This document shows positions 7,772 through 35,835 of a DNA stretch of 64,000 nt, in pieces. Each line of letters opens with the position of its first letter. Positions within the stretch are counted from its first letter, which is position 1. Source of the DNA: an uncultured Planctomycetales bacterium. GTDB lineage: Bacteria; Omnitrophota; Gorgyraeia; Zapsychrales; Zapsychraceae. The position numbers and the translations under genes were made by a program. The stretch is from positions 65,232 through 129,231 of the forward strand of contig CAZHWM010000012.1 in NCBI GenBank assembly GCA_964535935.1. The letters run 5' to 3'. The notes under the pieces were generated by a model that searched no databases, was not told the DNA's origin, and saw nothing but the letters and a program-made list of their open reading frames with translations.

Positions 7772-8701
7772 TTATTTGTATTTTTTTTTAGAGATAAATA
7801 TAATCCCATCTTTTACTCCTTTAAAGGTAGCTTTAAATAATTGTTTTTTATTTTTATACACACATAATATTTTAATAAAATCTTTTAGAAGACATAGAAA
7901 GTATATAGGTAGAAATAAAAGAAATGTTATTTTTTTAGAATAAACTTTATGGAGGAAAATAAGTTTGTTTCTATAATTATAGTAAGCTGTATATGGATTA
8001 AATTTCTCTCCTCCAGAACTTTGTGAAACTTTATGAAATACTATTGATAATGGTTCATAAATAATTTTATATCCTTCTTTATTTATTCTATAACAAAGAT
8101 CCAAATCCTCACAATAACAAAAATATTCTTCATCAAAATATATACTATTTAAAGAAAGTTTTATAAGCATAGAACATCCTGATATATATTGAACTTCTTT
8201 TGCCGTTTCTGTATTACTGTAATGGTCCTCTTTTCCCTCGTCTATATTAGAAAAAAATTTTAATCCTGGTGGGAACAGTTGAAACTTTATTAAATATAGA
8301 CCTCTAGACCAAATTTTATTTGAATCAAAAAATTTAATTTTTGACCCAACCGCCCCCACTTCTTTTCTCTTTAAATGGCGCACCTGATATTTCAGAGAAT
8401 CTTTATCTACAATAGTATCATTATTTAAAATCCATACATATTCATAACCATTATCTTTCGCCCATTTTATAGCTATATTATTCCCTTTTGAGAAACCATT
8501 GTTATTTTTATTTTGAATTAAATGAATGTCATGAAATTTTTCTTTAATACGACTTCCTTCATTTTCTTTAGAAAAATTATCTACTATAATTATTTTATAA
8601 TTAGAATATCCTAACTTTTTCAAAGATTCTATACACATAATTGTATCTTTATATCCATTCCAATTTAGTATAATTATTGCAACTTTTGGTTCATTCTGCA
8701 T
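7772..8701 (-). CDS. glycosyltransferase family 2
   Basis: VAIIILNWNGYKDT, IIIVDNFS, NNGFSKGNN, ILNNDT and CEDLDLCYR are typical GT2 (rhamnosyltransferase-like) motifs. Confidence 0.8.
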   Translation of the reverse strand: MQNEPKVAIIILNWNGYKDTIMCIESLKKLGYSNYKIIIVDNFSKENEGSRIKEKFHDIHLIQNKNNNGFSKGNNIAIKWAKDNGYEYVWILNNDTIVDKDSLKYQVRHLKRKEVGAVGSKIKFFDSNKIWSRGLYLIKFQLFPPGLKFFSNIDEGKEDHYSNTETAKEVQYISGCSMLIKLSLNSIYFDEEYFCYCEDLDLCYRINKEGYKIIYEPLSIVFHKVSQSSGGEKFNPYTAYYNYRNKLIFLHKVYSKKITFLLFLPIYFLCLLKDFIKILCVYKNKKQLFKATFKGVKDGIIFISKKKYK

Positions 8702-9045
8702 CCCTTAGAACTCCAGAATATAATTTAAATTAAAATAAAACTTAATCCATTCGTTAATTTTTTATGTATCTTTTACCTAAATAAAAAAAATGAAATATGA
8801 TAATTATAATAATTGTGATTAGTTGATATATTATTCTATTTTTTTAATCTTAGGTTTTAAATACCCTTAACTAATCGGGGGTTTTTTCATGATTTTTTAA
8901 AGTGGGATAAATATATAAATATAAATTTCATATTCCTAACACGTTTTAATTATTTCTTGCGAACTTGACTTGAATAAGGACTATATAATAATATTTTTTG
9001 TCATTTGTAACATTAATAGAAATATAAAGTATTGTATATAAACAT

Positions 9046-10098
9046 TTAGCTCTTTTTGTATTTATATCTTTTTACCCATTTTGCAGGTGAAATTCTTTCC
9101 CCTTTTATATTAAAAATAGCATGAATATATGCAAGGCATAGAAGTTTTAACCTTAAAATTTTGTAATCCATAAATACTATAATGTTTATACTGTTTCTTA
9201 AGAATATATAAATTATTTCTACCCAAAACTTTATATTTTTTTTATTACTATATTTTTTCCGGAGAAACAAACTATTACGTTTACCATAATATCTCTTCCA
9301 TAAATTTTCAATATTCTCGTAATTATTATTCTTATATTTTTCCCCCACCCGGTCTTTATGAATAATAATTGCTTTTTTATTCAAGTAAATTTTACCATAA
9401 TCGTTCAATCTCCAACAATACTCTACATCATCATACCAAATAAAAAAATCTTTATCAGGAAACCCTTTTTCTGCTACCGCTTTCTTAGAAATTAATAACC
9501 CCACGAAGGAACTGTAATCTATTTCTAATAAATTTTCATTTTTGGAATAATCTTCTTTGGACAAAGGAATAACTTCTCCTTTTTCTCTGTTTATATATCC
9601 TCGGTGTACTTTTTGAATCTCTCCTTCTGTATCAATTTTAAGAGGAGTTAATGCAGATATTTTAGAAGATAATAAATTGATACTATTTAACAATATTTTT
9701 AAACAGTCCTTTTCAGGTTCTGCATCATCATCCATCAACCATAACCAGTCATAGCCTTTTTCATATCCTCTTTTTACGCCCTCATAAAAGCCCCCAGCTC
9801 CACCAATATTTTTATGTATTCTAACGTAGTGAATTTTTAGCTCATTTTTGTTATCTTTTGCAGACATGAACATTTTACTCTCAGATTCCAAAGGATAATC
9901 GATAGGTTGTAAAATTTCCTTTATATATCCTTTTTTTTTCAATAGGACAGGGGTCCCATCCGTGGAGGCATTATCAATTATGTATATAGCATGTAAAGGA
10001 TATGTTTGTTTTAAAATAGAGTCCAGGCATTCCAACAATAAATCTTTCCTGTTATAAGTTACCACTACTGCGCATATTTTTTCTTGTTTATTGTCCAT
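9046..10098 (-). CDS. glycosyltransferase family 2 (GlfT/rhamnosyltransferase-like)
   Basis: CAVVVTYNRKDLL, IIDNASTDGT, NIGGAGGF, LWLMDDDAEPE and WYDDVEYCWR are present. Confidence 0.8.
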   Translation of the reverse strand: MDNKQEKICAVVVTYNRKDLLLECLDSILKQTYPLHAIYIIDNASTDGTPVLLKKKGYIKEILQPIDYPLESESKMFMSAKDNKNELKIHYVRIHKNIGGAGGFYEGVKRGYEKGYDWLWLMDDDAEPEKDCLKILLNSINLLSSKISALTPLKIDTEGEIQKVHRGYINREKGEVIPLSKEDYSKNENLLEIDYSSFVGLLISKKAVAEKGFPDKDFFIWYDDVEYCWRLNDYGKIYLNKKAIIIHKDRVGEKYKNNNYENIENLWKRYYGKRNSLFLRKKYSNKKNIKFWVEIIYIFLRNSINIIVFMDYKILRLKLLCLAYIHAIFNIKGERISPAKWVKRYKYKKS

Positions 10099-10100
10099 TT

Positions 10101-11420
10101 TTAATATCCTAAAATTTTTTTAATTTTAAATCCATCTTTTATAGAATCAACTATCCCTTGGAATTTCCATTTCCCGTATCTACCTATTTGATAAATGTTA
10201 TTTTCTCTAAGAATATTAATTGTTTCATCTTGCCAATTTGCATTTGTTGTTTGCCATGTATAAGCCACATCTATCCAGGTAGTGTTTACTACTTCTGCCT
10301 CGGAAATATATTCTGCTTCCATTAATTCTGCAACTATTTTTTTAGAAATCGATTTTATCTCTTCACTACTCGGTTTATTCCCTCCCAAAAAAGCTTTTTC
10401 TACGTATATAACTACACGATCATTATTTTCTCTAAAAGATATAGGGGAGAAAGATTTATCTACATTACTATAAAAACCAACTCTGTGGAATCCAGATTTA
10501 CTTTTAGGGAAATAAATCCAATGATAAGCTGGCAACTTTTTTCCTTTTTTTGCACCAATATTTACAACTAATACAGAGGTATAACACGGTATAATAGATT
10601 CTCCTATCTTTATTTCTGTTAATTGTAACATTTTGTTCAAAGGTAAAGTTGAAATTATCATGTCATATTTTACAGTTTCCCCATCTTCAAAATAGATCTC
10701 TTTTCTTTTAGGGACTATCTTTACAACTTTTTTATTAAAATTGATTTTACATCTTTCAGCCATTTTTCTAATCAACATATCTAACCCTTTTTGAGGATAG
10801 ACAAAACTCGCATTATAACCTACATTGGGTGACTTTTCTTTTATTCCTTTTAAAATTAGTTTTTTATTTATAGGGGTTTTAAATTTATCTTGTGGGGTTA
10901 TTTGTGTGTATAGATCAGCGGTATACAATTTATGAAATGGGAAAAAAAATAATTCACATAAAGTTTTTCCAAAATTGATTTCTAACCAATCAGATAGCGT
11001 ATTTACATCTTTATCTCCATTCTCAGAATCTAAGATTTCTTTTAATATTTTTTCCCTGATTTCTTCAGGTAAATAAATAAGATGATCTTGTAAAGGATAG
11101 GGAATATAGAGATCCAAATCAGGCAAATATACTGCGGAATTCCTTTTATAACGGTTAACCTTTACTAATGAAGTTATAAAATTTAAAATCTCTTTATCCG
11201 CACCAAAAATCCAATGGCCCCCCCCTATTTCAAATCTATAAGAGTCCTCTGTTTGCCGATAGTAACTTATTCTTCCGTTCAAATCCATATAATAGGATGC
11301 ACATATCCCACCAGCGATATTAGAGGCCTCATAAATTGTACATTTCGTATCTAACCCAGCACTTAATCCGGTTATTCCTGAACCTAAAATTATACCATTT
11401 TTTTGCATTTTATCCCCCAT
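10101..11420 (-). CDS. FAD-dependent flavoprotein resembling eukaryotic-type UDP-galactopyranose mutase
   Basis: The dinucleotide fold is [26 protein letters not shown] matches fungal UGM [42 protein letters not shown] and IGRYGKWKF match RGRFGSWRY. The stop lies 2 nt before the next gene's start. Confidence 0.55.
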   Translation of the reverse strand: [439 protein letters not shown]

Positions 11421-11437
11421 TTCTCCATATAACTTTA

Positions 11438-12718
11438 TTAAAGTAATAATTTTTTGTGATATAAATAAAAAAACATACTAGCTGTAACAAATATTTCGGT
11501 AACCAAGACAGATATAGAAATACCAATATATTTGTAACATGGAGTTAATAATAATGCTAGAATTATGTTAATAATCCCTGCTGAAATAAGAATTCTTGAG
11601 AATGCTTTCTTAAAGTTAAATGTAAGCATTATTTGAATACCTAGAATGTTACTTAAAGAAATTATAAATGGTAGGAATGACAAGATTTGCAGTACAATTA
11701 TAGACTGTTGAAACTGTCTACCCAGTATTATATTTATAATAGGTCTAGCAAATATTAAGATAAATAAAGAAATGGCAAAGCTTATTATACCTATAAAAAT
11801 AAGTATCTTCTTTGTAAAATTCAATGCTTTTTGTTTAGATTGAACTACTAGTTTGCTTATATAAGGATAAATAGTTTGTGAAAATGGGTGTAATATCCTT
11901 TGTATTACTGTAATTATTTTCTCTGCTGCTACATAATATCCTACGACAGCATTATTTGTAAATAGTCCTAATATAAAAGTATTACTATTTGTGTATAAAG
12001 TAATCGACATTGTAGAGATAAATACATACCAACCTTCTTTTAATTGGTAACTTATCTGCTTAAAGTTAGGCACAATGAACTTAATCTCAAAATTTTTATA
12101 TATAATCCATAATCCTATTATACCAGTTACCAAGAATCCTAAAGAAGTTATTAGAGGCACATAGATATAATCCTGTATCTTTTTTACAAATATAAAAATG
12201 GAGACTGTAAATATAATTTTTGATACTATATTTGAAAGGGTAATATATTTCATTTTTTCCATTCCTTGGAAGAACCATATGGGGAATAAACTTTGACCTA
12301 ATACACTGCCAAAGGTAAATATATATATTAACCAATGACTTTTAATTTTGGGGATACTAAGAATCAATCCTATTAAAATAATAAAACTAATCAGCATAAA
12401 ACAAAATTTAATTGACATTACTGAACTAAATATTTCTGAAATTTTGTTTTTATTTTCTCTATATATAGATATTTCCCTGGTTGCAGATAAATTAAATCCA
12501 TAATCTGTTAAAATAACAAAATATTGAATGAATGCTTTGGCGAAAGCAATTAACCCATATTTTTCTGGGCCTAAAACTCTTACCAAGTAAGGTAAAGTAA
12601 TTATTGGTAACACGTAATCCATTATTTGTAAAAAGGAGAGCGAAAGGAAATTTTCAATCAAAATATTTTTTTTTTTAGAAAAAAGAAATTTTTGGAAGGT
12701 ATCTTTTATGAATTCCAT
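11438..12718 (-). CDS. wzx: polysaccharide/oligosaccharide flippase (Wzx, MOP superfamily)
   Basis: This is a 426-aa polytopic membrane protein. Its N-terminal pattern LPIITLPYLVRVLGPEKYGLIAFA is typical of Wzx/RfbX. Confidence 0.75.
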   Translation of the reverse strand: MEFIKDTFQKFLFSKKKNILIENFLSLSFLQIMDYVLPIITLPYLVRVLGPEKYGLIAFAKAFIQYFVILTDYGFNLSATREISIYRENKNKISEIFSSVMSIKFCFMLISFIILIGLILSIPKIKSHWLIYIFTFGSVLGQSLFPIWFFQGMEKMKYITLSNIVSKIIFTVSIFIFVKKIQDYIYVPLITSLGFLVTGIIGLWIIYKNFEIKFIVPNFKQISYQLKEGWYVFISTMSITLYTNSNTFILGLFTNNAVVGYYVAAEKIITVIQRILHPFSQTIYPYISKLVVQSKQKALNFTKKILIFIGIISFAISLFILIFARPIINIILGRQFQQSIIVLQILSFLPFIISLSNILGIQIMLTFNFKKAFSRILISAGIINIILALLLTPCYKYIGISISVLVTEIFVTASMFFYLYHKKLLL

Positions 12719-12834
12719 TTTTTCTTATCAATTTATATCTATGTAAAATTAGTAATATATCTAACCACTTATTCCAAATGAAAAATTTTCTTAGAGCTTA
12801 TATGAACTGTGATTTATATTATTAATAAAAAAAC

Positions 12835-13860
12835 TTAATTACTTTTGAGAGCGCTCAATTGTTTTATTGCTTCAATAACATCAGTAACCCTAATTTTTTT
12901 CATACACAAATTATCCCCATATCTACATTGTTTATCATCGCAAGGAGGGTTACAGAATTTACGATCAATTTTTTTTCTAACAATACCTATTTTTCTATTA
13001 CCATCAATATAAGGATACCAACATTCTTTTGAAGGACCACATAAAACTACTTGAGGTACTCTAAGTGCATTGGCAATCCACATAGGGCCAGAATTAGTCG
13101 AAATAAAAAGATCCGCTTCGTTAATCAAGGCTGTCGTCTGAGGTATAGTAAACTTATTAACAACATTTATTACAGGCACATCTAACAATTTGATAACTTT
13201 CTCTGTTTTATCTACATCCACATAACTTCCAATAAAGAAAACATTAGCTTTATATTGTTTAACCAAAAATTTTACAACCTCCGCCCATTTTTTTTCAGAC
13301 CACATCCTTGAGTAAACCCCCTTATTTGCACCGATATGAAAAACAACTTTTGGAGTATTTTCATGGAATACACTATTTTTAAGAAAAATTTTTATATTGT
13401 AGCTTTCTTCCACAAAAGAGAAAGGGATAAACGGTTCATAATCACTTTCGTTAATATTTATATCTATTTTTTTTAAAATATCAAGTTTTAGACGACAGAC
13501 ATTTATATGCCTTAACGCTGGGAATTCTGTGCTTTTATAGAATATCTTTTTTTCTGCCCTAAGCGATGTTATCAATAAACTGTAGAAAAAATTTTTCGGA
13601 TATCCCAATGGCCTAGTTAGCCCTCCCCAACCGATTAATATATCTAGTTTTTGTTTAAAAAGTAAAGGAATTTTTGTTATCCTCCCATAAGTTATTATTT
13701 CGTCTAAAAGATCTATTTTAGTGTTCTCAATGAACCCCCCATCATAAGAGTAAAGATTGACTCTCGAATTCGGATAAACTCTTTTAAGTTTCCTTAAAAG
13801 AGGGGATATAGAAATTATATCCCCTATAGCAGCTGGAGAAATTATAGCTATTTTTTTCAT
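12835..13860 (-). CDS. glycosyltransferase family 9 (heptosyltransferase-like)
   Basis: IISPAAIGDIISISPLLRKLKRVYP, TNSGPMWIANALRVPQVVLCGPS and the C-terminal Cys cluster CNPPCDDKQCRYGDNLCM are present. Confidence 0.8.
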   Translation of the reverse strand: MKKIAIISPAAIGDIISISPLLRKLKRVYPNSRVNLYSYDGGFIENTKIDLLDEIITYGRITKIPLLFKQKLDILIGWGGLTRPLGYPKNFFYSLLITSLRAEKKIFYKSTEFPALRHINVCRLKLDILKKIDININESDYEPFIPFSFVEESYNIKIFLKNSVFHENTPKVVFHIGANKGVYSRMWSEKKWAEVVKFLVKQYKANVFFIGSYVDVDKTEKVIKLLDVPVINVVNKFTIPQTTALINEADLFISTNSGPMWIANALRVPQVVLCGPSKECWYPYIDGNRKIGIVRKKIDRKFCNPPCDDKQCRYGDNLCMKKIRVTDVIEAIKQLSALKSN

Positions 13861-13878
13861 AAAGACCCTATTTATCGT

Positions 13879-14934
13879 CTATCTAACCAACCTCTCAATG
13901 CATTCCCTAATATGCTTTCCTATCACTTTAGGTGAACATCTGCTACGAAATAATTGATATCCATTTTCTGCAATCTTTCTGCGTAGTTGTTCATCCTCAT
14001 GCAACGTCTTTATTGCCTCAGCCAGACTCTTAGGGTCTGCTGGCTTACATAAAAAAGCGGTTTCCTTATGAGCTAACAACTCTCTTGCTGCAGGTGTATC
14101 TGCAGTGATTAGTGGTTTTGCCATTGCAAGTGCTTCATAAACTTTATGCGGAATAACAAGACCTGCTTTCTGAGTATCTCCAAAGATTCCCAGACAAACG
14201 GATGCTCTTGCAATATATTCTGGCAATTGTTCATATGGCACAGAATCTATAAAATCAATATTATTTACATCATATCTATCTGCTATCTTTATACACTTTT
14301 TAAGCTCTCTCCCTCTACCTATCATCTGAAATTTTATCTCTGGAATAAAGGATGCAGCTTTTATTATATATTCCGCCCCATGCAAAGGCTGAAACTCACC
14401 ATGGAAATGGACAATAAATTCTGAATCTCTACCCTCTCTTGGAAACATTATAGAAGTATCAGAACTAACCCATAGCCGTCTGAATTTATTTTTTGAAAGT
14501 TTATATTCTTCGCAGAAAAACTTAATATGTTCCTCTGTATCTAAAAATACCATATCTGCTAACTTACAAGAAATCTTATCAAATAGCCTAGCAATTTTAG
14601 CAAAAATACTACCCTTAGATATTGCTTTACGGTCAAAGACCAATGTTTGATACACAGAAATAAATGCATCAAAAATAATTTTCTTGCGTGTAAATAATTT
14701 CACAATTGGGAGCAAAAACTGGCCTAAAAATCCTACAAAAATAATATCACACTCTCTCTTGTGCCTCAAAAATCTAAAAAAACTCTTAATATATCTAAAT
14801 ACATTTCTATCTGGACAGGAACAATCATATACTATGATATTTACTTGTCTCATCGCATTTAACAAGACCCTGTTTCGGGAGTAGCCTGATTCTCTACCTG
14901 GGATATAACATATCTTAATTATCCTACCACTCAT
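13879..14934 (-). CDS. glycosyltransferase family 4 (GT-B, GT1 clan)
   Basis: The C-terminal GT-B motif is LVIPHKVYEALAMAKPLITADTPAARELL. Confidence 0.8.
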   Translation of the reverse strand: MSGRIIKICYIPGRESGYSRNRVLLNAMRQVNIIVYDCSCPDRNVFRYIKSFFRFLRHKRECDIIFVGFLGQFLLPIVKLFTRKKIIFDAFISVYQTLVFDRKAISKGSIFAKIARLFDKISCKLADMVFLDTEEHIKFFCEEYKLSKNKFRRLWVSSDTSIMFPREGRDSEFIVHFHGEFQPLHGAEYIIKAASFIPEIKFQMIGRGRELKKCIKIADRYDVNNIDFIDSVPYEQLPEYIARASVCLGIFGDTQKAGLVIPHKVYEALAMAKPLITADTPAARELLAHKETAFLCKPADPKSLAEAIKTLHEDEQLRRKIAENGYQLFRSRCSPKVIGKHIRECIERLVR

Positions 14935-14938
14935 ATCT

Positions 14939-15940
14939 CTATATCTTATATACCTTTTTCCAATACCTTTCTAAAAATCTTTTCTTATCCTCCATCCACT
15001 TCATATTTTCCATATACCATGCAACTGTCTTTCGCATACCTTCTCCAATAGCAGTCTTGGCTCGCCATCCTAAACGCTTAATCTTTGCACAATTTACAGA
15101 ATACCTGAAATCATGCCCTGCTCTGTCCTGGACAAATTGTATCAAATTCTCAGGTTTATCTAATAATTTAAGAATGGTCTTTACAGTATTGATATTCTCT
15201 CTATCAAAATAGCTTCCTATATTATATATTTCACCTATCTTGCCCTTCTCTAACAAAATCTCTATTGCTTCGGCACAATCAGATACATAAAGCCACTCCC
15301 GTATTTGTTTTCCCCTTCCGTAAACCGGTACTGGCTGATTATGCATTGCCTTAAAAATAACTACTGGAATTAATTTTTCAGGGTACTGCCATGGACCGTA
15401 ATTATTAGCAGGTCTTATTATAATAGCAGGAAAGTTATATGTCCTTATAGCAGCTCTCACTAACATCTCAGCAGATGCCTTTGTCGCTGAATATGGATTA
15501 TTGGGTTTAATAGGGGCTGTTTCAAGAAAACGCCCTGATTGACTCTCACCATATACTTCATCAGTTGATATATGCAAAAATCTATTTATCCCATATTTTC
15601 TACTTATATCAATCAGATTCTGCGTTCCTATTACATTTGTACGTATAAATGCGCCTACCTCCTGTATACTTCTGTCAACATGTGTCTCAGCTGCAAAATG
15701 AATAATAGCATCTGGTTTTTCCTTATCTACAACATCAGCCAATTTGGCCTTATTGCAGATATCTATCTTATAAAAAACATATCTTCCCGCTACATCCTTA
15801 AGCCGCAATAGGTCCCCTGCATAAGTAAGTTTATCTACTACTACAACCTTATACCCTTTATCAATAGAGTGTCTGACAAATTCACTTCCTATAAAACCCG
15901 CCCCGCCTGTAACTAATACTTTACGTATTCCTTTATGCAT
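14939..15940 (-). CDS. rfbB: dTDP-glucose 4,6-dehydratase
   Basis: [35 protein letters not shown] and RPANNYGPWQYPEKLIP are present. Confidence 0.92.
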   Translation of the reverse strand: MHKGIRKVLVTGGAGFIGSEFVRHSIDKGYKVVVVDKLTYAGDLLRLKDVAGRYVFYKIDICNKAKLADVVDKEKPDAIIHFAAETHVDRSIQEVGAFIRTNVIGTQNLIDISRKYGINRFLHISTDEVYGESQSGRFLETAPIKPNNPYSATKASAEMLVRAAIRTYNFPAIIIRPANNYGPWQYPEKLIPVVIFKAMHNQPVPVYGRGKQIREWLYVSDCAEAIEILLEKGKIGEIYNIGSYFDRENINTVKTILKLLDKPENLIQFVQDRAGHDFRYSVNCAKIKRLGWRAKTAIGEGMRKTVAWYMENMKWMEDKKRFLERYWKKVYKI

Positions 15941-16755
15941 TCTTCTACCACCTCTTTAATTGAACGAACAGGGAACCCTGTGTCCTCAAGTTTCTTTGTT
16001 GATAAAATTAAATTGGTTCTATCCAGCCCAAGCTCCTCTAAAGGCAATATCTCATACTTGAATTCAGGTCTGTATCTCCTGTAAACATCCATTAGCTGTG
16101 GATATCGTAAAGCTCCCTTACAAACCACATTGTATATACCTACCGCATCAATGGAAATAAGATATTTCATTGCCTTAATAAAATCAGGGACATATGTCAC
16201 AGAATTAGGGATATCTAAAACTCTCTTATACTTTATCAATTTATCAACTATATTCTTGGGATGAGGTCTGTTATCCATAGGTATCCGCATTCTTAAGATA
16301 AGGATATTATAACGAATGGCTAACTCCTTTAATACAGCCTCTGAATAAATCTTACTCCTGCTATAATATAAATCGTAGTAATCAGGGACTCTATTCTCTG
16401 TTATAGGCCTCTGTCTTTCATAATCATAGTGATAAATACACCCGCTAGAAATATGTACCAGTTTGATACCACACCGTAATGCTATCTCCCCAAGTAATAT
16501 AGGTACAAATGTATTTGCCATAATGGTCTTGTCAATATCCTTTTCGCAATCATCTACATTTTTTTTCCCTGTATACCCGATACAGTTGACTATGATTTTG
16601 GGCTTATATTTTTTAATTTCTGCATTTATATCCTTAAAAGAATATATCTTCCTATCAGATAATATCCAACCCAACTCATCATGTAGTCTATTACCTATAA
16701 AACCATTACCTAAAATTAAAATTTTATTTTTGTCAAACATCTTTTTATCTTTCAT
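15913..16755 (-). CDS. NDP-4-keto-6-deoxyhexose reductase of the NRS/ER type (probable bifunctional 3,5-epimerase/4-reductase) occupying the rmlD position
   Basis: [10 protein letters not shown] is the Rossmann motif. [48 protein letters not shown] and YSRSKIY match Arabidopsis NRS/ER (NYATGCIFEYD, LRVRMPISSDLTNPRNFITKISRYQKVVNIPNSMT) much better than bacterial RmlD (HYSTDYVF). The start could instead be the ATG at 16740. Confidence 0.65.
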
Positions 16756-17614
16756 TTTTTAAACACCTCTTTAAATACTCTCCATAATCTGTTTTTATTG
16801 CCTTAGCCAACCTGCACAACTGGTTTGCATTTATATATCCCATACGATAAGCTATCTCTTCTATACAACCTATCTTAAGCCCCTGTCTATCTTCTATAGT
16901 CTTAATAAACATAGAAGCCTCTATAAGAGAATCATATGTACCTGTATCAAGCCATGCAAACCCTCTGCCGAGGAGTTTAACTTGCAACTTGCCCTTTTTT
17001 AAGTATGCCTTATTTACATCCGTAATTTCAAGTTCTCCTCTTGCAGATGGCTTTAGTTTCTTAGCTATGTTTATAACGTTATTATCATAAAAATATATTC
17101 CTGTTACAACCCAGTTCGAACGAGGAAATTTAGGTTTCTCCACTATAGAAGTTACCTTCTGATTCTTATCAAAGGTAATAACACCATAACGTTCAGGATC
17201 GTTTACACTATATGCAAAAACGACCGCTCCGTTCCTATTGGAAGCAGCCTCTCTTAAAAGATTAGTAAGTTTGTCTCCATGAAAAATATTATCGCCCAAT
17301 ATAAGGCATACAGAACTATTTCCTATAAACTCTTCACCTACAATAAAAGCCTGTGCTATTCCTTTAGGTTCTTGTTGGACAGCATAACTTATATCAAGCC
17401 CAATATCCTGCCCATTTCCGAATAATTTTTTAAAATTGTCGATATCTGCTGGCGTCGAAATAATCAATATCTCCCTTATCCCTGCCAGCATCAAAACAGA
17501 TAAAGGATAATATACCATAGGTTTATTATATACAGGCAAAAGTTGTTTACATACACCTCGTGTTATAGGGTAAAGCCTTGTAGCCCTCCCTCCAGCAAGG
17601 ACTATACCTTTCAT
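16745..17614 (-). CDS. rfbA: glucose-1-phosphate thymidylyltransferase
   Basis: [39 protein letters not shown] and the rest of the RmlA pattern are present. The length is 289 aa. Confidence 0.92.
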
Positions 17615-17668: not shown

Positions 17669-19576
17669 TTATACTTTCTCATATTCTTCTGACTTCTGCA
17701 AATGTTTTTTTAAGTTATCAACAGATTCCTTTAATAACCTGCAATACAAATCAAAACCCACAGTAGCAATATATCCATGCTGTTCTGCACCCAAAAGATT
17801 TCCTGCCCCTCTAAGTTGCATATCCTCATATGCAATATGAAAACCAGCACCTAATTCGCTAAACTTTTCAATAGCCTCAACCCTAGACCTTGCCTGTACA
17901 GATAAGCTCCTAAGACTTGGCACTAAAAAATATGCATATGCCTTTTTATTTTCCCGGCCAACCCTTCCCCGTAATTGATGCAAATCTGCCAGGCCAAACA
18001 TATCTGCCCTGTTAACAATCAGTGTATTTGCATTAGGAATATCTATTCCTGACTCTATAATAGTAGTACATACAAGCACATCTATCTTGCCTTCTAAAAA
18101 CCTAAACATAATCTCTTCAAGGAGTTTAGGTGGCATCTGTCCATGTGCTATACTTATATCCGCATCCGGCACCAACTTTTTTAATAACAAACCCATACGT
18201 TCAATATCTTCCACACGATTATGTAGAAAAAAGACCTGGCCCTTACGCCTTAATTCTCTATTTATAGCCTTCTTAATAATCTCTTCGTCAAATTCGGCTA
18301 TGATAGTCTTTACTGCCAATCTATTTTGAGGTGAAGTTGATATAACAGACATATCCTTTGCTCCTGACAAAGCCATATAAAGAGTTCGTGGTATAGGAGT
18401 AGCTGTTAGAGTAAGGACATCAGCCATGACCCTAAAATGTTTCAGCCTTTCTTTAGCCTTTACACCAAATCTTTGTTCTTCATCAACAATAATTAAGCCT
18501 AAATCCTTAAAGGCAATATCTTTTGATAATAACCTATGCGTCCCTATAATAATATCGATATCCCCATCTGCCAATCTTTTAATAATCTGTTGCTGTTCGG
18601 CCTTATTACGCAATCGGCTTATCATCTCTATATTTATAGGATATTTATTTAATCTTTGAAAAAAATTATAAAAATGTTGTTCAGCAAGTATTGTTGTGGG
18701 GACAAGAACAGCTACCTGTTTATTATCCATAACAGCCTTAAACGCTGCTCTTAAAGCTACTTCTGTCTTCCCATATCCAACATCTCCGCAAAGAAGCCTG
18801 TCCATAGGATGTGGAGATTCCATATCTGCCTTTACTTCAGATACCGCTTTAATCTGATCTGCGGTCTCTTCATATGGAAACGCTGCCTCAAATTCTCTCT
18901 GCCAATCAGTATCTTTTGAAAATACATGACCTTTCAACCCCACCCTAAGTGCCTGAGTATGCAGAAGTTCTGCTGCTAAGCGTTGTAATCTCTTTTTAAC
19001 AAGAGACTTAACTCTCTTCCATTCTTTACTACCTAACTTGTAGATACGTGGCGGCCTTTTAGAAAAACTAACATATTTCTGAACAAGATGAATATCTTCT
19101 TTAGGGACAAAGAGTCTATCTCCATCCCTATATTCTATTATAAGATAATCCTTGTTAACATCATTCACTTCTATCTGCTTTATTCCTAAAAACTTGCCTA
19201 TACCATGGTTATTATGAACGACATAATCACCTTTTTTTACATCTATAAAATTATTAAGCGGGATATCTGAAGAAAAAATTTCTTTTTTAAAGGATGGTTT
19301 CTTATTAGGGATAAGAATAACTATATTATGTTGCCATATAACAGTAGCTGTCTTAATATCTATGGTGGTAATAGAAGAGATCCTATCATCATCAAAACTT
19401 ATACGTAAAGGGGCATCAAAATTAGGAGGATATACATCTATTATCTCGCCTCTATGGCTAAACTCCCCTTGTTTTATTGTTTTTTTTACCCGATGATAAT
19501 GAAAGGCACTAAGGTTATTCAATACAACCTCAATATTAATCCTCTGGCCTGCAAACAACTCTAATGATTCAAACAT
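17669..19576 (-). CDS. mfd: transcription-repair coupling factor, compact form (~635 aa)
   Basis: The CarD/TRCF RNAP-interaction domain is VKKGDYVVHNNHGIGKFLGI...LFVPKEDIHLVQKY. Helicase motifs are GDVGYGKTEVA, IVDEEQRFG, LTLTATPIPRT and QLRGRVGR. The ORF track starts at 19651 with a TTG that overlaps secDF. The ATG at 19576 (MFESLE) is the more plausible start. Confidence 0.85.
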   Translation of the reverse strand: MFESLELFAGQRINIEVVLNNLSAFHYHRVKKTIKQGEFSHRGEIIDVYPPNFDAPLRISFDDDRISSITTIDIKTATVIWQHNIVILIPNKKPSFKKEIFSSDIPLNNFIDVKKGDYVVHNNHGIGKFLGIKQIEVNDVNKDYLIIEYRDGDRLFVPKEDIHLVQKYVSFSKRPPRIYKLGSKEWKRVKSLVKKRLQRLAAELLHTQALRVGLKGHVFSKDTDWQREFEAAFPYEETADQIKAVSEVKADMESPHPMDRLLCGDVGYGKTEVALRAAFKAVMDNKQVAVLVPTTILAEQHFYNFFQRLNKYPINIEMISRLRNKAEQQQIIKRLADGDIDIIIGTHRLLSKDIAFKDLGLIIVDEEQRFGVKAKERLKHFRVMADVLTLTATPIPRTLYMALSGAKDMSVISTSPQNRLAVKTIIAEFDEEIIKKAINRELRRKGQVFFLHNRVEDIERMGLLLKKLVPDADISIAHGQMPPKLLEEIMFRFLEGKIDVLVCTTIIESGIDIPNANTLIVNRADMFGLADLHQLRGRVGRENKKAYAYFLVPSLRSLSVQARSRVEAIEKFSELGAGFHIAYEDMQLRGAGNLLGAEQHGYIATVGFDLYCRLLKESVDNLKKHLQKSEEYEKV

Positions 19577-19610
19577 ATGCGAAGAAATAAGAAAACAAAT
19601 CCTCCATTTT

Positions 19611-21899
19611 CTATTTTTTCTTATCCCATGCCAAGACAAGAGGTGAGGCAATAAAAATAGTAGAATATGTTCCTGCTACGAAACCAATAATTAAACAAAG
19701 GGCAAATGTATTTAAAACTTCTCCTCCTTTGAAAAATAATGAAAAGACAACCAATAGAGTAGTAAGTGTAGTTAAAATTGTCCTACCCAAAGTCTGATTA
19801 ATACTCATATTAATAAGTTCTGCTAACCTTTTTTTAGGGAATTTTGCCATATTTTCCCTAACGCGATCATATATAATTATAGTGTCATTGATAGAGTACC
19901 CAGCAATAGTGAGCAAGGCTGTTACCACCAAAAGATCTATCTGTCTTCCCAACATAACCGCAATTCCCAAAGTAACAAAGACATCATGTAATAATGCTAT
20001 AACACCAGCAGTTGCAAAATCAAAGTGCTTAAATCTAAAACCAATAAAAATAAGAATACCTCCCAAAGCAAAAATAACTGCAAAGATCGCCCTTTTCCGT
20101 AAGGCCTTTCCAACAACAGGGCCAACTTTTTCTATACGCAATATCTCAAATGGATTAGAAGGAAATGCCTTTGCAAAAGCAGCCACAACCTTCTTATATG
20201 TATCTTTTGATGTCCTAATAAGGACGTTCTCTGAAGAACCATTTCGTTTAACTGTCGACTTTTTTTCAGATAAACCAAGCTTCTCTAAGCCTTTGCTTAT
20301 CGCATCATCTGATGATGGTTTTGTTATCTGAATAACCGCATCCTCTATGCCTGCTTTATCCAACGACCTTCTTAATGTCTCAGCGTTAACGGGTTTCTTA
20401 AACCTATATTCCTGTATTTGGCCTCCTGCAAAATCAATACCATATGCCTTATCTTTCTTCTGCACTAAAGCAACGACACTGGCAATAATTACAAATATGG
20501 ATATTGCAAAACAGACAAATCGTTTCGAAACAAAATCTATCTTAGAATTTTTAAACAACTGAAGCATAGTAAGTGATTTCAAAAATCCCAACTCAAAAAA
20601 TAAATCAAAAAACGTCCTTGTTACAAAAAGGGCTGTAAAAAGGCTAACAACAAGTCCTATTGAAAGTGTTACTGCAAATCCTTTAATTGGCCCTGAACCG
20701 AACTGAAATAACATAAACGCGGCAATAAGAGTAGTAGAATTTGAATCAACTATAGCCTTAAGTGCCTTATTAAATCCATTATTTATGGCTGCCTTAATAG
20801 ATCTTCCATTGTTAATTTCTTCTCTGATACGTTCGTTAATCAATACATTAGCATCTACAGCCATACCAAGAGTAAGAATAATACCTGCTATACCCGGTAA
20901 GGTTAAAGTAAGTTGAGACTCTGGTAAAGTCAGATTAAGGAATCCCATAGTACCGAATATAAGCAAAATGTTTAATACCAGAGCTATGTCTGATATCAAT
21001 CCTGCCTTTAAATAATAAACCAGCATAAAAATAAGCACCAACGCACCGCCTATAATAGTAGCAGTAATACCAGCGTTAATTGAGTCACGGCCCAAAAGTG
21101 GGCCAATGGTTCTCTCTTCTTCTATATGCATAGGCGCAGGCAATGCACCTGAACGGAGGGCTAAAGCTAACATGGATGCCTCTTCATAATTAAATTGACC
21201 GGTTATTTGAGCACTGCCACTTAGAATAGGTTCTTTAATATTAGGAGCTGTCAAAACCTCACCATCCAAAATCGCAGCTAATCTTCTGCCTACATTCTTT
21301 CTTGTAATATCTGCAAACTTTTTTGCACCTTCCGCGTTAAATTTTAAAGAAATATATGGTTCCCCGAAACCTGTCTGATCAAAATCCACTCTTGCATCTA
21401 CGATTGTATCTCCGTTTAATGCCACCTTATCTTGAACTAATAATGGTTCAGGTTTTTCTGCTCCCGTCCTATCTTTTACATATTTTAGTATATAGCCTTT
21501 CGGAACTTTACCTTTCAATGCTTCCTTTAATTTTTCAGGGTCATCATTAACTAACCTAAACTCAAGCTGCGCAACCTTACCTATCATCTGAATAGCCTTG
21601 TCACGATCGGTTATTCCCGGTAACTGAACCAAAATTTCATCCTCTCCCTGCCTTTGAATAACAGTCTCCCCAACACCTAGGCTATCAATACGATTTCGCA
21701 ATATCTCAATAGCGCGTAAAACTGCATCCTTCTTAGCATTTTTATCCAATTTTTCAGTTTCAACCTTTAAAATAAGATGCATCCCACCCTTTAAATCAAG
21801 GCCTAAATTAATATGCTTTTCTACAGGGAAAGTAAGATATATTGCAGCCACCACCACCGCGATTATAACCAATAGCCTATTTCTCAAACTCTTTCGCAT
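19611..21899 (-). CDS. secDF: protein translocase subunit SecDF (fused)
   Basis: A 762-aa single ORF has a SecD-like periplasmic domain plus 6 TM (GLDLKGGMHL, QQGEDEILVQLPG) and then a SecF-like half (GIDFAGG, SINDTIIIYDRVREN). Confidence 0.9.
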   Translation of the reverse strand: MRKSLRNRLLVIIAVVVAAIYLTFPVEKHINLGLDLKGGMHLILKVETEKLDKNAKKDAVLRAIEILRNRIDSLGVGETVIQRQGEDEILVQLPGITDRDKAIQMIGKVAQLEFRLVNDDPEKLKEALKGKVPKGYILKYVKDRTGAEKPEPLLVQDKVALNGDTIVDARVDFDQTGFGEPYISLKFNAEGAKKFADITRKNVGRRLAAILDGEVLTAPNIKEPILSGSAQITGQFNYEEASMLALALRSGALPAPMHIEEERTIGPLLGRDSINAGITATIIGGALVLIFMLVYYLKAGLISDIALVLNILLIFGTMGFLNLTLPESQLTLTLPGIAGIILTLGMAVDANVLINERIREEINNGRSIKAAINNGFNKALKAIVDSNSTTLIAAFMLFQFGSGPIKGFAVTLSIGLVVSLFTALFVTRTFFDLFFELGFLKSLTMLQLFKNSKIDFVSKRFVCFAISIFVIIASVVALVQKKDKAYGIDFAGGQIQEYRFKKPVNAETLRRSLDKAGIEDAVIQITKPSSDDAISKGLEKLGLSEKKSTVKRNGSSENVLIRTSKDTYKKVVAAFAKAFPSNPFEILRIEKVGPVVGKALRKRAIFAVIFALGGILIFIGFRFKHFDFATAGVIALLHDVFVTLGIAVMLGRQIDLLVVTALLTIAGYSINDTIIIYDRVRENMAKFPKKRLAELINMSINQTLGRTILTTLTTLLVVFSLFFKGGEVLNTFALCLIIGFVAGTYSTIFIASPLVLAWDKKK

Positions 21900-31502: not shown

Positions 31503-32009
31503 CTATTTATATTTTTTTATCTTCCTCAATGCCTTACCAATGGCGCAACTGCTAAATCCTCGCCGAAGGAGGTATCCATATAACCTATGCTTCATTTTCT
31601 CCGTAGATATACCCTTATACTTAGAAACTTGTTTTTCAACCAAATGGGCCACTACATCATCTTCATCATAACTATCCTGCATAGCAGATGACAATTCATC
31701 CTCAATAATAGAATCATCAATACCCTTCTGCTGTAACTCTCTCTTTATCCTTACCCTACCAAATGGCTTAGCTAATCTCCATTCAATCCACTCACGTGCA
31801 AACCTACGGTCATCTATAATACCTATATCCTTAAAATAATCAACTACTCTAACAATAACCTCCTCATTAAATCCCTTTTTTTTTAATCTCTCACTCAATT
31901 CAGCCTCACTACGTATCCTGAACTTCAACAACCTTTGCGCTGCTGTTATTGCCTTCTTATAATCTTGAGATAAGATATCTCTCATAATTAAAGTCAAAAT
32001 ATAGGACAA
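31503..32009 (-). CDS. recX: recombination regulator RecX
   Basis: A 168-aa helical-repeat protein (RSEAELSERLKKKGF...VVDYFKDIGIIDDRRFA) lies directly downstream of recA, giving the conserved recA-recX-alaS order. Confidence 0.8.
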   Translation of the reverse strand: MSYILTLIMRDILSQDYKKAITAAQRLLKFRIRSEAELSERLKKKGFNEEVIVRVVDYFKDIGIIDDRRFAREWIEWRLAKPFGRVRIKRELQQKGIDDSIIEDELSSAMQDSYDEDDVVAHLVEKQVSKYKGISTEKMKHRLYGYLLRRGFSSCAIGKALRKIKKYK

Positions 32010-32019
32010 GAGGGAAATA

Positions 32020-33072
32020 TTAGATAGGTTTCAGATCAAACTTTGCGCGTATTTCTTTTTCTATCTTTTTTGCTATCTTAGGATTATTCTTTAAAAATTT
32101 ACGAACATTATCCTTCCCCTGACCTATCCGTTCACCACCATAAGAAAACCATGCACCTGATTTTTCAATAATTCCTTGCTTTACTGCTAAATCAAGGATA
32201 TCTGCCTCATAAGATATCCCCTCATCAAAATGTATCTCAAACTCTGCTTCCCTGAACGGTGCTGCAACTTTATTTTTTACAATCTTTGCCTTAACACGAT
32301 TTCCTATAATATGTTCTCCCCTCTTAATTGACTCAATACGTCGTAAATCTATACGAACAGAGGCATAAAACTTCAACGCCCTCCCTCCTGTAGTAGTCTC
32401 AGGAGAGCCAAACATAACACCTATCTTCATCCTTATTTGATTAATAAAAATTACACACGTATTTGACTTATTAATAACGGCTGTTAACTTTCTCAATGCC
32501 TGCGACATCAACCTAGCCTGCAACCCCATATGAGAGTCGCCCATATCACCTTCTATTTCAGCTCTCGGGGTAAGTGCAGCAACAGAATCTATGATAATTA
32601 CATCGACTGCGCTAGAACGAACTAGCGTCTCTGCAATCTCTAGAGCCTGTTCTCCAGTATCAGGTTGAGATACCAGAAGCTCCTCCAATTTAACTCCAAC
32701 TTTCTGTGCATAAGCAGAATCAAAGGCATGTTCTGCATCAATAAAAGCAGCAGTGCCTCCCATTTTTTGAACCTGATGTATAATACTTAATGTAAGAGTG
32801 GTCTTTCCAGAAGATTCTGGTCCAAATATCTCAACAACCCTGCCTCTTGGGACCCCCCCTACTCCAAGGGCAACATCCAGCGCAAACGAACCAGTAGGGA
32901 TAGCATCAACACCTTTAGCAACACTCCCATCCAATTTCATAATAGACCCCTTCCCAAACTGCTTCTCTATCTGAGAAAGGGCTAGTTCTAATGCCTTTTT
33001 CCTATTCTCTGACTCAAGGTTCTTTTTTGCATCAGAGTTTTTCTTTTGTTCTTTCATAACCTTTTTCCTCAC
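32020..33072 (-). CDS. recA: recombinase RecA
   Basis: [20 protein letters not shown], the Walker A motif [19 protein letters not shown] and [20 protein letters not shown] are present. Confidence 0.97.
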
Positions 33073-35644: not shown

Positions 35645-35835
35645 AGAGATAGTAATATACTGAGTATGAGACTGACTAAAATACAGGTGGCAAGGGGAAA
35701 ATAGAATGCAAAATTTTCTTTTTTGATAAAAATATCTCCTGGTAATCTACCTAGCCATGGGATTTTACCTATAATATATGCAGCTATTCCCGCAATAATG
35801 AATATAATTCCTATTGTAATTAACAATTTAGCCAT
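35629..35835 (-). CDS. DUF2905 family small membrane protein
   Basis: The protein is 68 aa with two TM segments and the motif GRLPGDIFIKKENFAFYFP. Confidence 0.65.
   Translation of the reverse strand: MAKLLITIGIIFIIAGIAAYIIGKIPWLGRLPGDIFIKKENFAFYFPLATCILVSLILSILLSLWNQK

What the first reader, a model, noticed from the sequence alone, without database searches (positions are those of the whole stretch)
17669..19651. Minimal Mfd (~635 aa) without the C-terminal D7 domain and most of the UvrB-homology module
Canonical Mfd is ~1150 aa. This ORF stops at ...GFDLYCRLLKESVDNLKKHLQKSEEYEKV*, right after the translocase core, where E. coli Mfd (GFSLYMELLENAVDALK...) continues for ~190 aa (the autoinhibitory D7). 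At the N-terminus only ~90 aa precede the RNAP-interaction domain. That stretch (GEFSHRGEIIDVYPPNFDAPLRISFDDDRISSI) aligns, from memory, to E. coli residues ~160-195 (HGEYATRGALLDLFPMGSELPYRLDFFDDEIDSL). Only ~25 aa then separate it from VKKGDYVVHNNHGIGKF, versus ~280 aa in E. coli. The neighbours abut tightly (secDF stop at 19611, rfbA start at 17614), so the missing parts are not encoded next door. An Mfd lacking D7 should lack the known autoinhibition of UvrA recruitment.
Basis: partly seen in the sequence, partly recalled or inferred. Interest (0 to 1): 0.55.

Follow-up and report, generated by a model that had tools for sequence, protein, structure and literature searches.

The report
Four-domain mini-Mfd of Omnitrophota bacteria
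This is the intact transcription-repair coupling factor (Mfd) of an Omnitrophota bacterium, and across that phylum the protein keeps only its UvrA-docking domain, RNA-polymerase-binding domain and DNA motor, having lost the C-terminal domain that locks the protein off in E. coli.

Summary
The gene (window 17669-19576, minus strand, 635 aa from the ATG; the 660-aa ORF is only the mechanical TTG start) encodes an Mfd made of D2, a 14-24-aa tether, RID, TD1 and TD2, ending just after the hook helices. D1a, D1b, D3 and D7 are cleanly absent: E. coli 126-221 aligns to residues 3-97 and E. coli 463-991 to residues 99-627.

It is not a pseudogene or an assembly error. 240 further protein clusters (617-683 aa, one 489-aa fragment aside), almost all named Omnitrophota, share the architecture, and none has a TRCF/D7 domain. 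They form one clade (NJ bootstrap 160/200) in conserved synteny (mfd, surA-like, pdxA, ksgA).

All tested ATPase, translocation and TRG residues, the hook-relay W550, and the UvrA-binding R165 and R181 are conserved. F185 and the otherwise invariant Q200 are replaced.

Most likely it is a working coupling factor without the D2-D7 clamp. Published E. coli delta-D7 mutants still carry out strand-specific repair.

Two things were not resolved: whether uvrA/uvrB exist in these genomes, and whether a second mfd lies outside the DNA I could read.

The searchable literature describes only the opposite natural truncation (endosymbionts lose D2 and keep D7). I rate this a new variant of a known kind, of moderate interest.

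The parts
17669..19576 (-). Complete short mfd gene (635 codons plus TAA stop at 17669-17671). The listed ORF extends to a TTG at 19651, but that N-terminal extension is not conserved.
   Evidence: Identical 635-aa public gene call P0001. NCBIfam TIGR00580 (mfd) scores 900 bits against a cutoff of 800.
19301..19564 (-). D2, the UvrA-interaction domain (residues 5-92). It is the only part of the UvrB-homology module that is kept.
   Evidence: Pfam UvrB_inter E = 9e-19. Aligns to E. coli Mfd 126-221 and to the D2 crystal chain 4DFC. AF2 pLDDT about 90. R165 and R181 equivalents present in 232/241 and 241/241.
19241..19300 (-). Short connector (residues 93-112) replacing about 247 aa of D1b and D3. 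Predicted to be flexible.
   Evidence: 14-24 aa in 241 short forms against 143-351 aa in 263 full-length Mfds. pLDDT below 50 for residues 93-106.
19037..19240 (-). D4, the RNA-polymerase interaction domain (RID, residues 113-180).
   Evidence: Pfam CarD_TRCF_RID E = 4e-21. Aligns to E. coli 472-547. The L499 position stays hydrophobic (I/L/F).
18332..19036 (-). Relay helix (residues 184-213) and translocation domain 1 (D5), with Walker A, motif Ic and motif II (DEEQ).
   Evidence: Pfam DEAD. K634, T710, D729, E730 and E731 equivalents invariant, and W550 equivalent (W186) present in 240/241. 30-residue helix in the AF2 model.
17708..18331 (-). Translocation domain 2 (D6), with motif VI, the TRG motif and the hook helices (residues 416-623).
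   Evidence: Pfam Helicase_C. H842, R902, R905, R929, R953 and Q963 equivalents invariant. Aligns through to E. coli 987-991.
17672..17707 (-). Variable 12-residue C-terminal tail where the roughly 158-aa D7 would follow in canonical Mfds.
   Evidence: Median of 10 aa after the E. coli K987 equivalent in short forms against 158 aa in full-length Mfds. Pairwise identity 0.20.
19611..21899 (-). Upstream neighbour, a fused SecDF. Its stop lies 35 nt before the mfd ATG, so it leaves no room for D1a.
   Evidence: Same order (yajC, secDF, mfd) in relatives.
16745..17614 (-). Downstream neighbour, an RfbA-type nucleotidyltransferase. Its start lies 54 nt after the mfd stop, so it leaves no room for D7.

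Best explanation
This is the single, functional Mfd (transcription-repair coupling factor) of an Omnitrophota bacterium. An ancestor of the clade lost three segments of a full-length Mfd: D1a (about 130 aa), D1b plus D3 (about 250 aa) and D7 (about 160 aa). What remains is a four-module protein of D2, a flexible tether, the RID, and the TD1/TD2 motor with its relay helix, TRG motif and hook helices.

Shown here: the architecture, its conservation across the phylum and its single origin, the intact catalytic, translocation and RNAP-binding determinants, and constraint on D2 that includes the two arginines reported as critical for UvrA binding.

Inferred: the RID binds the beta subunit of a stalled RNA polymerase. 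The motor translocates on upstream duplex DNA and pushes the polymerase forward or off. D2, hanging on its tether, recruits UvrA (UvrA2B) to the vacated site. Because D7 and the D1-D3 clamp do not exist, the UvrA-binding face of D2 cannot be masked and the motor cannot be held by the N-terminal clamp. The protein should therefore behave like the derepressed E. coli delta-D7 and delta-N mutants. Residual control would come only from the conserved hook-relay interface (W550 equivalent), from RNAP tethering, and perhaps from expression level.
For: Domain content and clean junctions.

No D7, D1a or D1b/D3 coding potential in any frame of the window or of five short-form loci, with strong positive controls.

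The 120 best homologues are 621-669 aa. A second divergent branch adds 120 more (119 of them 617-683 aa, plus one 489-aa fragment). None has PF03461, and the named ones are almost all Omnitrophota, on contigs up to 1.63 Mb.

Among 1.84 billion cluster representatives, only the two closest hits are short and the next 148 are 987-1337 aa.

All 17 sampled short forms fall on one branch, NJ bootstrap 160/200.

Synteny is conserved (secDF or rpoA-rplQ-aminotransferase, then mfd, surA-like, pdxA, ksgA). In three of the eight neighbourhoods the mfd stop overlaps the next gene's start.

Walker A K, motif Ic T710, motif II, H842, R902/R905, TRG R929/R953/Q963 and W550 are invariant or nearly so in 241 short forms.

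D2 conservation relative to the motor (0.56 vs 0.75) is at least as high as in full-length Mfds (0.39 vs 0.60). R165 and R181 equivalents are present in 232/241 and 241/241.

The AF2 model (pLDDT 81.8) matches Mfd crystal structures (TM 0.64-0.73, E about 1e-62).

Literature: E. coli Mfd delta-D7 has elevated ATPase and translocase activity (PMC1874598) and still performs strand-specific repair in vitro and in vivo, whereas loss of the UvrB-homology module or the D2 R165A/R181A/F185A mutant does not (PMC3025350). R165 and R181 are reported as critical for UvrA binding (PMC7385628).
Against: The presence of uvrA, uvrB and uvrC in these genomes was not established. None lies in the 64-kb window, in the 10 kb reached beyond one end, or within +-10 kb of mfd in eight other Omnitrophota genomes, and no paper in the library addresses it.

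F185, one of the three residues in the published UvrA-binding-defective triple mutant, is D/E/R in the short clade (204/241). Q200, invariant in 263 full-length Mfds, is G. The UvrA interface may therefore be altered, although UvrB itself has G at the Q200 position.

No biochemical data exist for any member.

A second mfd, or stand-alone D7 or D1 genes elsewhere in the genome, cannot be excluded from the DNA available.
Confidence: 0.65

Rival explanations
1. The protein is a working RNAP-displacing or anti-backtracking translocase, but D2 no longer recruits UvrA. D2 is kept for another reason, for example a new intramolecular regulatory contact with the motor that replaces the D2-D7 clamp, or binding of a different partner. 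On this reading it is a transcription-termination or rescue factor rather than a repair-coupling factor.
For: There are clade-wide substitutions at positions that are strongly conserved in canonical Mfds: F185 to D/E/R, Q200 to G, relay-helix Y572 to Q (97%) and TRG-hairpin R/H948 to E (99%). Together these could form a new D2-motor surface. No uvr gene was found in any Omnitrophota DNA examined. The literature accepts repair-independent roles for Mfd (PMC13453472).
Against: Where UvrABC is known to be lost (Buchnera, Wigglesworthia, chloroplasts), Mfd loses D2 as well (PMC3488230). Here D2 is the one N-terminal piece that was preserved through two flanking deletions. R165 and R181, reported as critical for UvrA binding, are retained. 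UvrB, which binds the same UvrA surface, also has G at the Q200 position. The tether is predicted to be disordered rather than docked.
Confidence: 0.2
2. The missing domains are supplied in trans. Either a separate gene elsewhere in the genome encodes D7 (or D1/D3), or a second full-length mfd paralogue coexists, so the short protein is only part of the system.
For: Only 64 kb of a contig of at least 211 kb was available. One full-length Mfd (P0129, 1112 aa) carries an Omnitrophica label.
Against: No D7, D1a or D1b/D3 signal appears in any frame of the window or of five short-form loci, nor in the Pfam calls of eight +-10-kb neighbourhoods. P0129 sits on a 3.8-kb contig, and its relatives form a small separate full-length group whose only other named member is Ratteibacteria. 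It therefore looks like the orthologue of a neighbouring lineage, not a paralogue. The short gene occupies a conserved housekeeping position as a single orthologue in both branches. From general knowledge, mfd is normally single-copy in bacteria.
Confidence: 0.07
3. The gene is a truncated pseudogene or an assembly or frameshift artefact of a full-length mfd.
For: Its length is about 55% of canonical Mfd.
Against: The same length and domain set appear in 240 further 90%-identity clusters from NCBI, JGI, ENA and Logan assemblies. The junctions are clean and in frame. Catalytic residues are invariant. The flanking genes abut. There is no residual coding signal for the lost domains.
Confidence: 0.01

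Closest known systems
Canonical bacterial Mfd / TRCF (E. coli Mfd, PDB 2EYQ; M. smegmatis Mfd, 6AC8)
   Same: D2, RID, relay helix, TD1, TD2, TRG motif and hook helices are all present. The core is about 51% identical to E. coli and 57-59% identical to the nearest full-length Mfds. It passes the NCBIfam mfd equivalog cutoff, and the best structural matches are Mfd crystal structures.
   Different: It lacks D1a, D1b, D3 and D7, about 510 of 1148 residues. [quoted passage not shown] F185, Q200, Y572 and R/H948 are replaced across the clade.
Engineered E. coli Mfd delta-D7 (Smith 2007, PMC1874598; Manelyte 2010, PMC3025350)
   Same: There is no D7, and D2 is present and unmasked. The mutant is derepressed for ATPase and translocation yet still supports strand-specific repair, so it is the best functional analogue.
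   Different: The mutant keeps D1a, D1b and D3. The natural protein also lacks these, so it additionally resembles the N-terminal clamp deletions (Murphy 2009, cited) while retaining D2.
Atypical natural Mfds of Buchnera, Wigglesworthia and Arabidopsis chloroplasts (Smith 2012, PMC3488230; Brugger 2026, PMC13453472)
   Same: They are naturally shortened Mfds from reduced genomes and lack D1.
   Different: They are the opposite pattern. They lack D2 and keep D7, and their hosts lack UvrABC. The Omnitrophota form keeps D2 and lacks D7. A metagenomic example of the endosymbiont-like type was seen in passing (P0367, 690 aa, RID, motor and TRCF).
Thermus thermophilus Mfd (978 aa; PMC13453472)
   Same: It is a natural Mfd reported to be constitutively derepressed, with an open D2-D7 clamp. 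This shows that weak or absent clamp autoinhibition is tolerated in nature.
   Different: [quoted passage not shown] Its clamp is dynamic, not deleted.
RecG
   Same: It has the same SF2 motor with a TRG motif and was the next-best structural and sequence match.
   Different: RecG has an N-terminal wedge domain and no RID or D2. All NCBIfam RecG models score far below their cutoffs (for example 408 against 718).

Membership tests
Mfd / TRCF (NCBIfam TIGR00580) | The whole-protein score reaches the curated equivalog cutoff | tested here: met
   900.2 bits against a cutoff of 800. The E. coli-type full-length model NF007966 is not reached (676 against 1329).
Mfd / TRCF | RNA-polymerase interaction domain (CarD_TRCF_RID, D4) | tested here: met
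   PF02559 E = 4e-21. Aligns to E. coli 472-547 and to the RID chains 3MLQ and 6YHZ.
Mfd / TRCF | SF2 translocase with ATPase motifs, motif Ic Thr, His842 and the TRG motif (R929, R953, Q963) | tested here: met
   All are invariant or nearly invariant in 241 short forms.
Mfd / TRCF | Relay helix and hook helices with the conserved Trp (W550) | tested here: met
   W186 is present in 240/241. The AF2 model shows a 30-residue helix at 184-213 and C-terminal helices.
Mfd / TRCF | Complete UvrB-homology module (D1a-D2-D1b) | tested here: not met
   Only D2 is present (PF17757). A median of 9 aa precedes it and 21 aa follow it before the RID. HMMs for D1a and D1b/D3 find nothing.
Mfd / TRCF | C-terminal TRCF domain (D7, PF03461) | tested here: not met
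   No Pfam hit at E <= 1. The protein ends about 12 aa after the hook helices. The D7 HMM finds nothing in six-frame translations. The domain is absent from all 240 homologous clusters listed.
Mfd / TRCF | ATP-dependent displacement of stalled RNAP, and binding of UvrA through D2 | not testable with these tools
   This needs biochemistry. Only the sequence determinants could be checked: R165 and R181 are kept and F185 is replaced.
Endosymbiont-type truncated Mfd (Buchnera / Wigglesworthia / chloroplast) | Lacks the whole UvrB-homology module including D2, and retains D7 | tested here: not met
   D2 is present and D7 is absent, the reverse pattern (family definition from PMC3488230).
RecG | Reaches a RecG equivalog cutoff, with an N-terminal wedge domain and no RID | tested here: not met
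   The best RecG model scores 408 bits against a cutoff of 718, and a RID and D2 are present instead.

The most novel reading that the evidence does not exclude
Omnitrophota run transcription-coupled repair with a coupling factor that has none of the D2-D7 or N-terminal clamp autoinhibition thought to be needed to prevent premature UvrA recruitment and indiscriminate attack on RNA polymerase. Alternatively, they have evolved a different, direct D2-to-motor lock, using the clade-specific changes at F185, Q200, relay-helix Y572 and TRG R/H948. Either way the protein would be a natural minimal TRCF that defines which Mfd parts are truly essential.
Probability: 0.3. Interest if true: 0.65.

Novelty: new variant of a known kind. 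Interest (0 to 1): 0.52.

Why it matters
Mfd regulation is an active topic. An August 2026 paper argues that clamp autoinhibition is not universal, but still treats D7 and the hook as the conserved regulatory core (PMC13453472). An earlier paper reasoned that a permanently activated Mfd is unlikely to exist in cells, because even atypical Mfds keep D7 (PMC3488230).

A whole bacterial phylum whose only detectable Mfd lacks D7, D1 and D3 yet keeps D2 is a natural counter-example. It supports, from evolution, the mutant result that D7 is dispensable for strand-specific repair while D2 is not.

It also offers a compact 72-kDa, four-module protein for structural and single-molecule work on RNAP displacement and UvrA hand-off. 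It flags residues (Q200, F185, Y572, R/H948) whose roles in the full-length protein could now be tested.

It is not a new kind of system. The parts and their likely mechanism are those of Mfd.

Tried and rejected
Looking for uvrA/uvrB. I ran tblastn with E. coli UvrA and UvrB against the window and five short-form loci; only an ABC ATPase and D2 itself hit. I tried to extend the window by 10 kb at each end; the right-hand extension showed LPS genes, and the left-hand look-up returned only 3-4-kb contigs. I read eight other Omnitrophota mfd neighbourhoods. I made four literature searches and one supplement search. Nothing was found, and the neighbourhoods are too conserved for chance discovery. 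With the tools available I could not read whole genomes.

The metagenome scan used generic Mfd motifs and returned mostly full-length Mfds from other phyla. That still yielded three more short forms and a length contrast.

The first AF2 run on 25 close homologues was poor (pLDDT 63.6), so I repeated it with 141 sequences. The models give no coordinates, so I could not test whether D2 docks on the motor.

The first tree run timed out. The second used a wrong ORF for L006 and was corrected.

Rejected ideas:
- D2 re-acquired from UvrB. The short D2 scores higher against Mfd D2 than against UvrB domain 2.
- P0129 as evidence of a paralogue. It belongs to a separate Ratteibacteria-like group.
- The DEEQ motif II as unusual. 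It is the majority form in full-length Mfds.


Full report
**1. The observation**

The window has an ORF at 17669-19651 on the minus strand, 660 aa counted from the first in-frame TTG. The sequence around the 5' end shows the secDF stop at 19611-19613 and an ATG at 19576 that begins MFESLELF. All homologues start at that motif, and public gene calls give an identical 635-aa protein (P0001). I therefore take 17669-19576 as the gene. The stop is TAA at 17669-17671, and the next gene starts at 17614. Pfam confirms the neighbours: fused SecDF, YajC and S16 upstream, and an RfbA-type nucleotidyltransferase plus RmlD- and RmlB-like enzymes downstream.

**2. Domain content**

Pfam finds four domains and no TRCF domain (PF03461), even at E <= 1:
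- UvrB_inter, residues 5-92 in 635-aa numbering
- CarD_TRCF_RID, residues 114-169
- DEAD, residues 240-399
- Helicase_C, residues 436-542

NCBIfam places the protein in TIGR00580 (mfd) at 900 bits against a cutoff of 800. It fails the E. coli-type full-length model (676 against 1329) and all RecG models.

Against solved structures, E. coli Mfd residues 126-221 align to query 3-97 and residues 463-991 align to query 99-627 (coordinates converted from the 660-aa query). The junctions are clean. D1a, D1b plus D3, and D7 are missing, and D2 is joined to the RID region almost directly.

A 506-sequence alignment quantifies this, comparing 241 short forms with 263 full-length Mfds (medians, with ranges for the connector):

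| Segment | Short forms | Full-length Mfds |
|---|---|---|
| Before D2 | 9 aa | 141 aa |
| Between D2 and the RID | 21 aa (14-24) | 247 aa (143-351) |
| After the hook helices | 10 aa | 158 aa |

**3. Not an artefact, and nothing hidden nearby**

I built HMMs for D7, D1a and D1b/D3 from 139-145 full-length relatives. They recover the E. coli domains at E = 8e-42, 3e-27 and 3e-24. In six-frame translations of the whole window and of five other short-form loci they find nothing better than E = 0.19. By eye, the window is otherwise housekeeping sequence: his genes, alaS, recX, recA, queA, ruvB, infB, nusA, proS and LPS genes.

**4. Distribution**

- The 120 best homologues (65-100% identity) are all 621-669 aa with the same Pfam set. 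Every one that a source names to an organism is Omnitrophota/Omnitrophica.
- An exhaustive search of 1.84 billion cluster representatives lists only two short proteins (642 and 640 aa), as the top hits. The next 148 are 987-1337 aa, and those I scanned carry D7.
- A metagenome scan added three short forms (L005, L006, L014) among 77 longer or end-truncated Mfd ORFs.
- Searching with the most divergent of these (L014, 50% identity) returned another 120 clusters: 119 of 617-683 aa plus one 489-aa fragment. None has D7, and the named ones are almost all Omnitrophota, on contigs up to 662 kb.
- In a neighbour-joining tree of the shared core (516 columns, 175 sequences), all 17 sampled short forms fall on one branch, with bootstrap 160/200. 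Their mutual core identity goes down to 56%, about the same as their identity to full-length Mfds of other phyla (57-59%). The deletions are therefore ancient and arose once.

Synteny supports a single orthologous gene per genome. One branch has alaS, the his operon, trpE, rpsP, yajC, secDF and then mfd. The other has the ribosomal protein cluster, rpoA, rplQ, an aminotransferase and then mfd. In every related genome I read from either branch, surA-like, pdxA and ksgA follow (in this window an rfb cluster sits there instead; section 9). In the three first-branch neighbourhoods read the mfd stop overlaps the next start.

One full-length Mfd labelled Omnitrophica (P0129) sits on a 3.8-kb contig. 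Its relatives form a small separate full-length group whose only other named member is Ratteibacteria. I read it as the orthologue of a neighbouring lineage, not a paralogue.

**5. Is it functional?**

These residues are invariant or nearly so in 241 short forms:
- Walker A Lys
- motif Ic Thr710
- motif II (DEEQ, which is also the majority form in full-length Mfds)
- His842
- motif VI Arg902 and Arg905
- TRG residues Arg929, Arg953 and Gln963

Trp550 is also kept, in 240/241. Mutating Trp550 derepresses E. coli Mfd through the hook-relay interface (PMC3488230). The RID position of L499 stays hydrophobic.

D2 is under constraint. Its mean pairwise identity is 0.56 against 0.74-0.76 for the motor. 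In full-length Mfds the figures are 0.39 against 0.57-0.62.

An AF2 model from 141 sequences has pLDDT 81.8 and pTM 0.66. D2 is at about 90, the only long low-confidence stretch is 93-106 (the tether), there is a 30-residue relay helix, and the hook helices run to the C-terminus. Foldseek's best matches are Mfd crystal structures (6AC8 TM 0.72, 2EYQ 0.64, E about 1e-62), followed by RecG.

**6. The UvrA question**

Of the three residues in the published UvrA-binding-defective triple mutant (R165A, R181A, F185A; PMC3025350):
- R165 is kept in 232/241.
- R181 is kept in 241/241. Both arginines are described as critical for UvrA binding (PMC7385628).
- F185 is D/E/R in 204/241, against F in 184/263 full-length Mfds.

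Q200, invariant in all 263 full-length Mfds, is G in 231/241 short forms. UvrB, which binds the same UvrA surface, also has G there, in both sequences I could check. Q200 is therefore probably an Mfd-specific intramolecular contact made redundant by the deletions. That is inference.

The short D2 is closer to Mfd D2 (63-70 bits) than to UvrB domain 2 (45-50 bits), so it was inherited and not re-acquired.

I could not establish whether these genomes encode UvrA and UvrB. None lies in the DNA I could read, and the literature available is silent. This is the main gap.

**7. Mechanism**

Established knowledge:
- In E. coli, D7 packs on D2 and masks the UvrA site, and D1-D3 clamp the motor.
- Release requires loading onto a stalled elongation complex (PMC7864632; PMC7385628).
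- Deleting D7 raises ATPase and translocase activity (PMC1874598).
- Mfd delta-D7 still gives strand-specific repair in vitro and in vivo, whereas deleting the UvrB-homology module or mutating D2 abolishes it (PMC3025350).

The Omnitrophota protein is, in effect, a natural delta-D7 and delta-D1/D3 form that keeps D2. I infer the following sequence. The RID anchors the protein to RNAP. The motor translocates and displaces or rescues the polymerase. A permanently exposed, tethered D2 recruits UvrA. Residual control would come from the hook-relay interface and from RNAP tethering.

The alternative is that D2 has been redeployed, for example as a new lock on the motor using the switched residues at F185, Q200, Y572 and R/H948. 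I cannot exclude this and give it about 0.2.

**8. Comparison with what is known, and novelty**

The literature describes natural truncations only of the opposite kind. Mfds of Buchnera, Wigglesworthia and chloroplasts lack the UvrB-homology module including D2 and keep D7, in organisms without UvrABC (PMC3488230; PMC13453472). Those papers reason that D7 and the hook are the conserved regulatory core and that a permanently activated Mfd is unlikely.

No paper in the searchable library links Mfd with Omnitrophota. The proteins are auto-annotated as "transcription-repair coupling factor" without comment.

This is therefore a new variant of a known kind. It passes the family's sequence threshold and has all motor and RID features, but it fails two architectural features (D7 and the full UvrB-homology module).

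**9. What else was seen**

- In this genome the otherwise conserved surA-like, pdxA, ksgA block downstream of mfd is replaced by an rfb / glycosyltransferase cluster of low G+C content.
- Other Mfd architectures turned up in metagenomes: L074, P0367 and P0141.
- Some records carry loose taxon labels.

Details are in the noticed-in-passing list.

Noticed in passing
window 7772-17614 (minus strand): In every related Omnitrophota genome examined, mfd is followed by surA-like, pdxA and ksgA. In this window that block is replaced by an rfbA / rmlD-like / rmlB-like cluster with glycosyltransferase, flippase-like and heptosyltransferase-like genes. G+C drops to 0.26-0.29 at 8-14 kb, against about 0.35 around it, which suggests an inserted or exchanged surface-polysaccharide island.
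   Followed up: partly
window residues 62, 77, 208 and 584 of the mfd product (codons at about 19391-19393, 19346-19348, 18953-18955 and 17825-17827): Clade-specific switches at positions conserved in full-length Mfds: F185 to D/E/R; Q200 (263/263 Q) to G; relay-helix Y572 to Q (97%); TRG-hairpin R/H948 to E (99%); also Q895 to D and L914 to F. They may mark lost D7/D1b/D3 contact surfaces or a new D2-motor contact. This is unexplained.
   Followed up: partly
L074:9605-12475: A 957-aa Mfd on a 687-kb metagenomic contig has D1a, D2, only about 85 aa between D2 and the RID (no D3, reduced D1b) and a D7. It is an intermediate architecture, which shows that the D1b/D3 region is independently shrinkable.
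   Followed up: no
P0367; P0141: P0367 is a 690-aa metagenomic Mfd with RID, motor and TRCF domains but no UvrB_inter domain, which is the endosymbiont-like type. P0141 (1006 aa) has a full N-terminus but no TRCF hit at E <= 1e-5 and only 54 aa after the core. That may be another D7-less form or a gene cut by a contig end.
   Followed up: no
L001 (CAZYOA010000013.1); P0440: Records labelled 'uncultured Planctomycetales bacterium' and 'Verrucomicrobiae bacterium' carry the short mfd in the typical Omnitrophota synteny, so these taxon labels are probably loose.
   Followed up: partly
L094:14858-20534: In one Omnitrophota lineage, mutS, mutL and radC directly follow the mfd, surA-like, pdxA, ksgA block. 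This makes a local cluster of DNA-repair genes.
   Followed up: no
window 19577-19651: The mechanical ORF begins at a TTG that overlaps the end of secDF by 41 nt. The 25 extra residues are not conserved in any homologue. The GGAGG at 19601-19605 lies 24 nt upstream of the ATG at 19576, too far for a classical Shine-Dalgarno spacing.
   Followed up: partly
window 31503-33072: recA (350 aa) and recX (168 aa) are adjacent, and ruvB lies at 35828-36955. So recombinational repair genes are present in this genome segment even though no uvr gene is.
   Followed up: no
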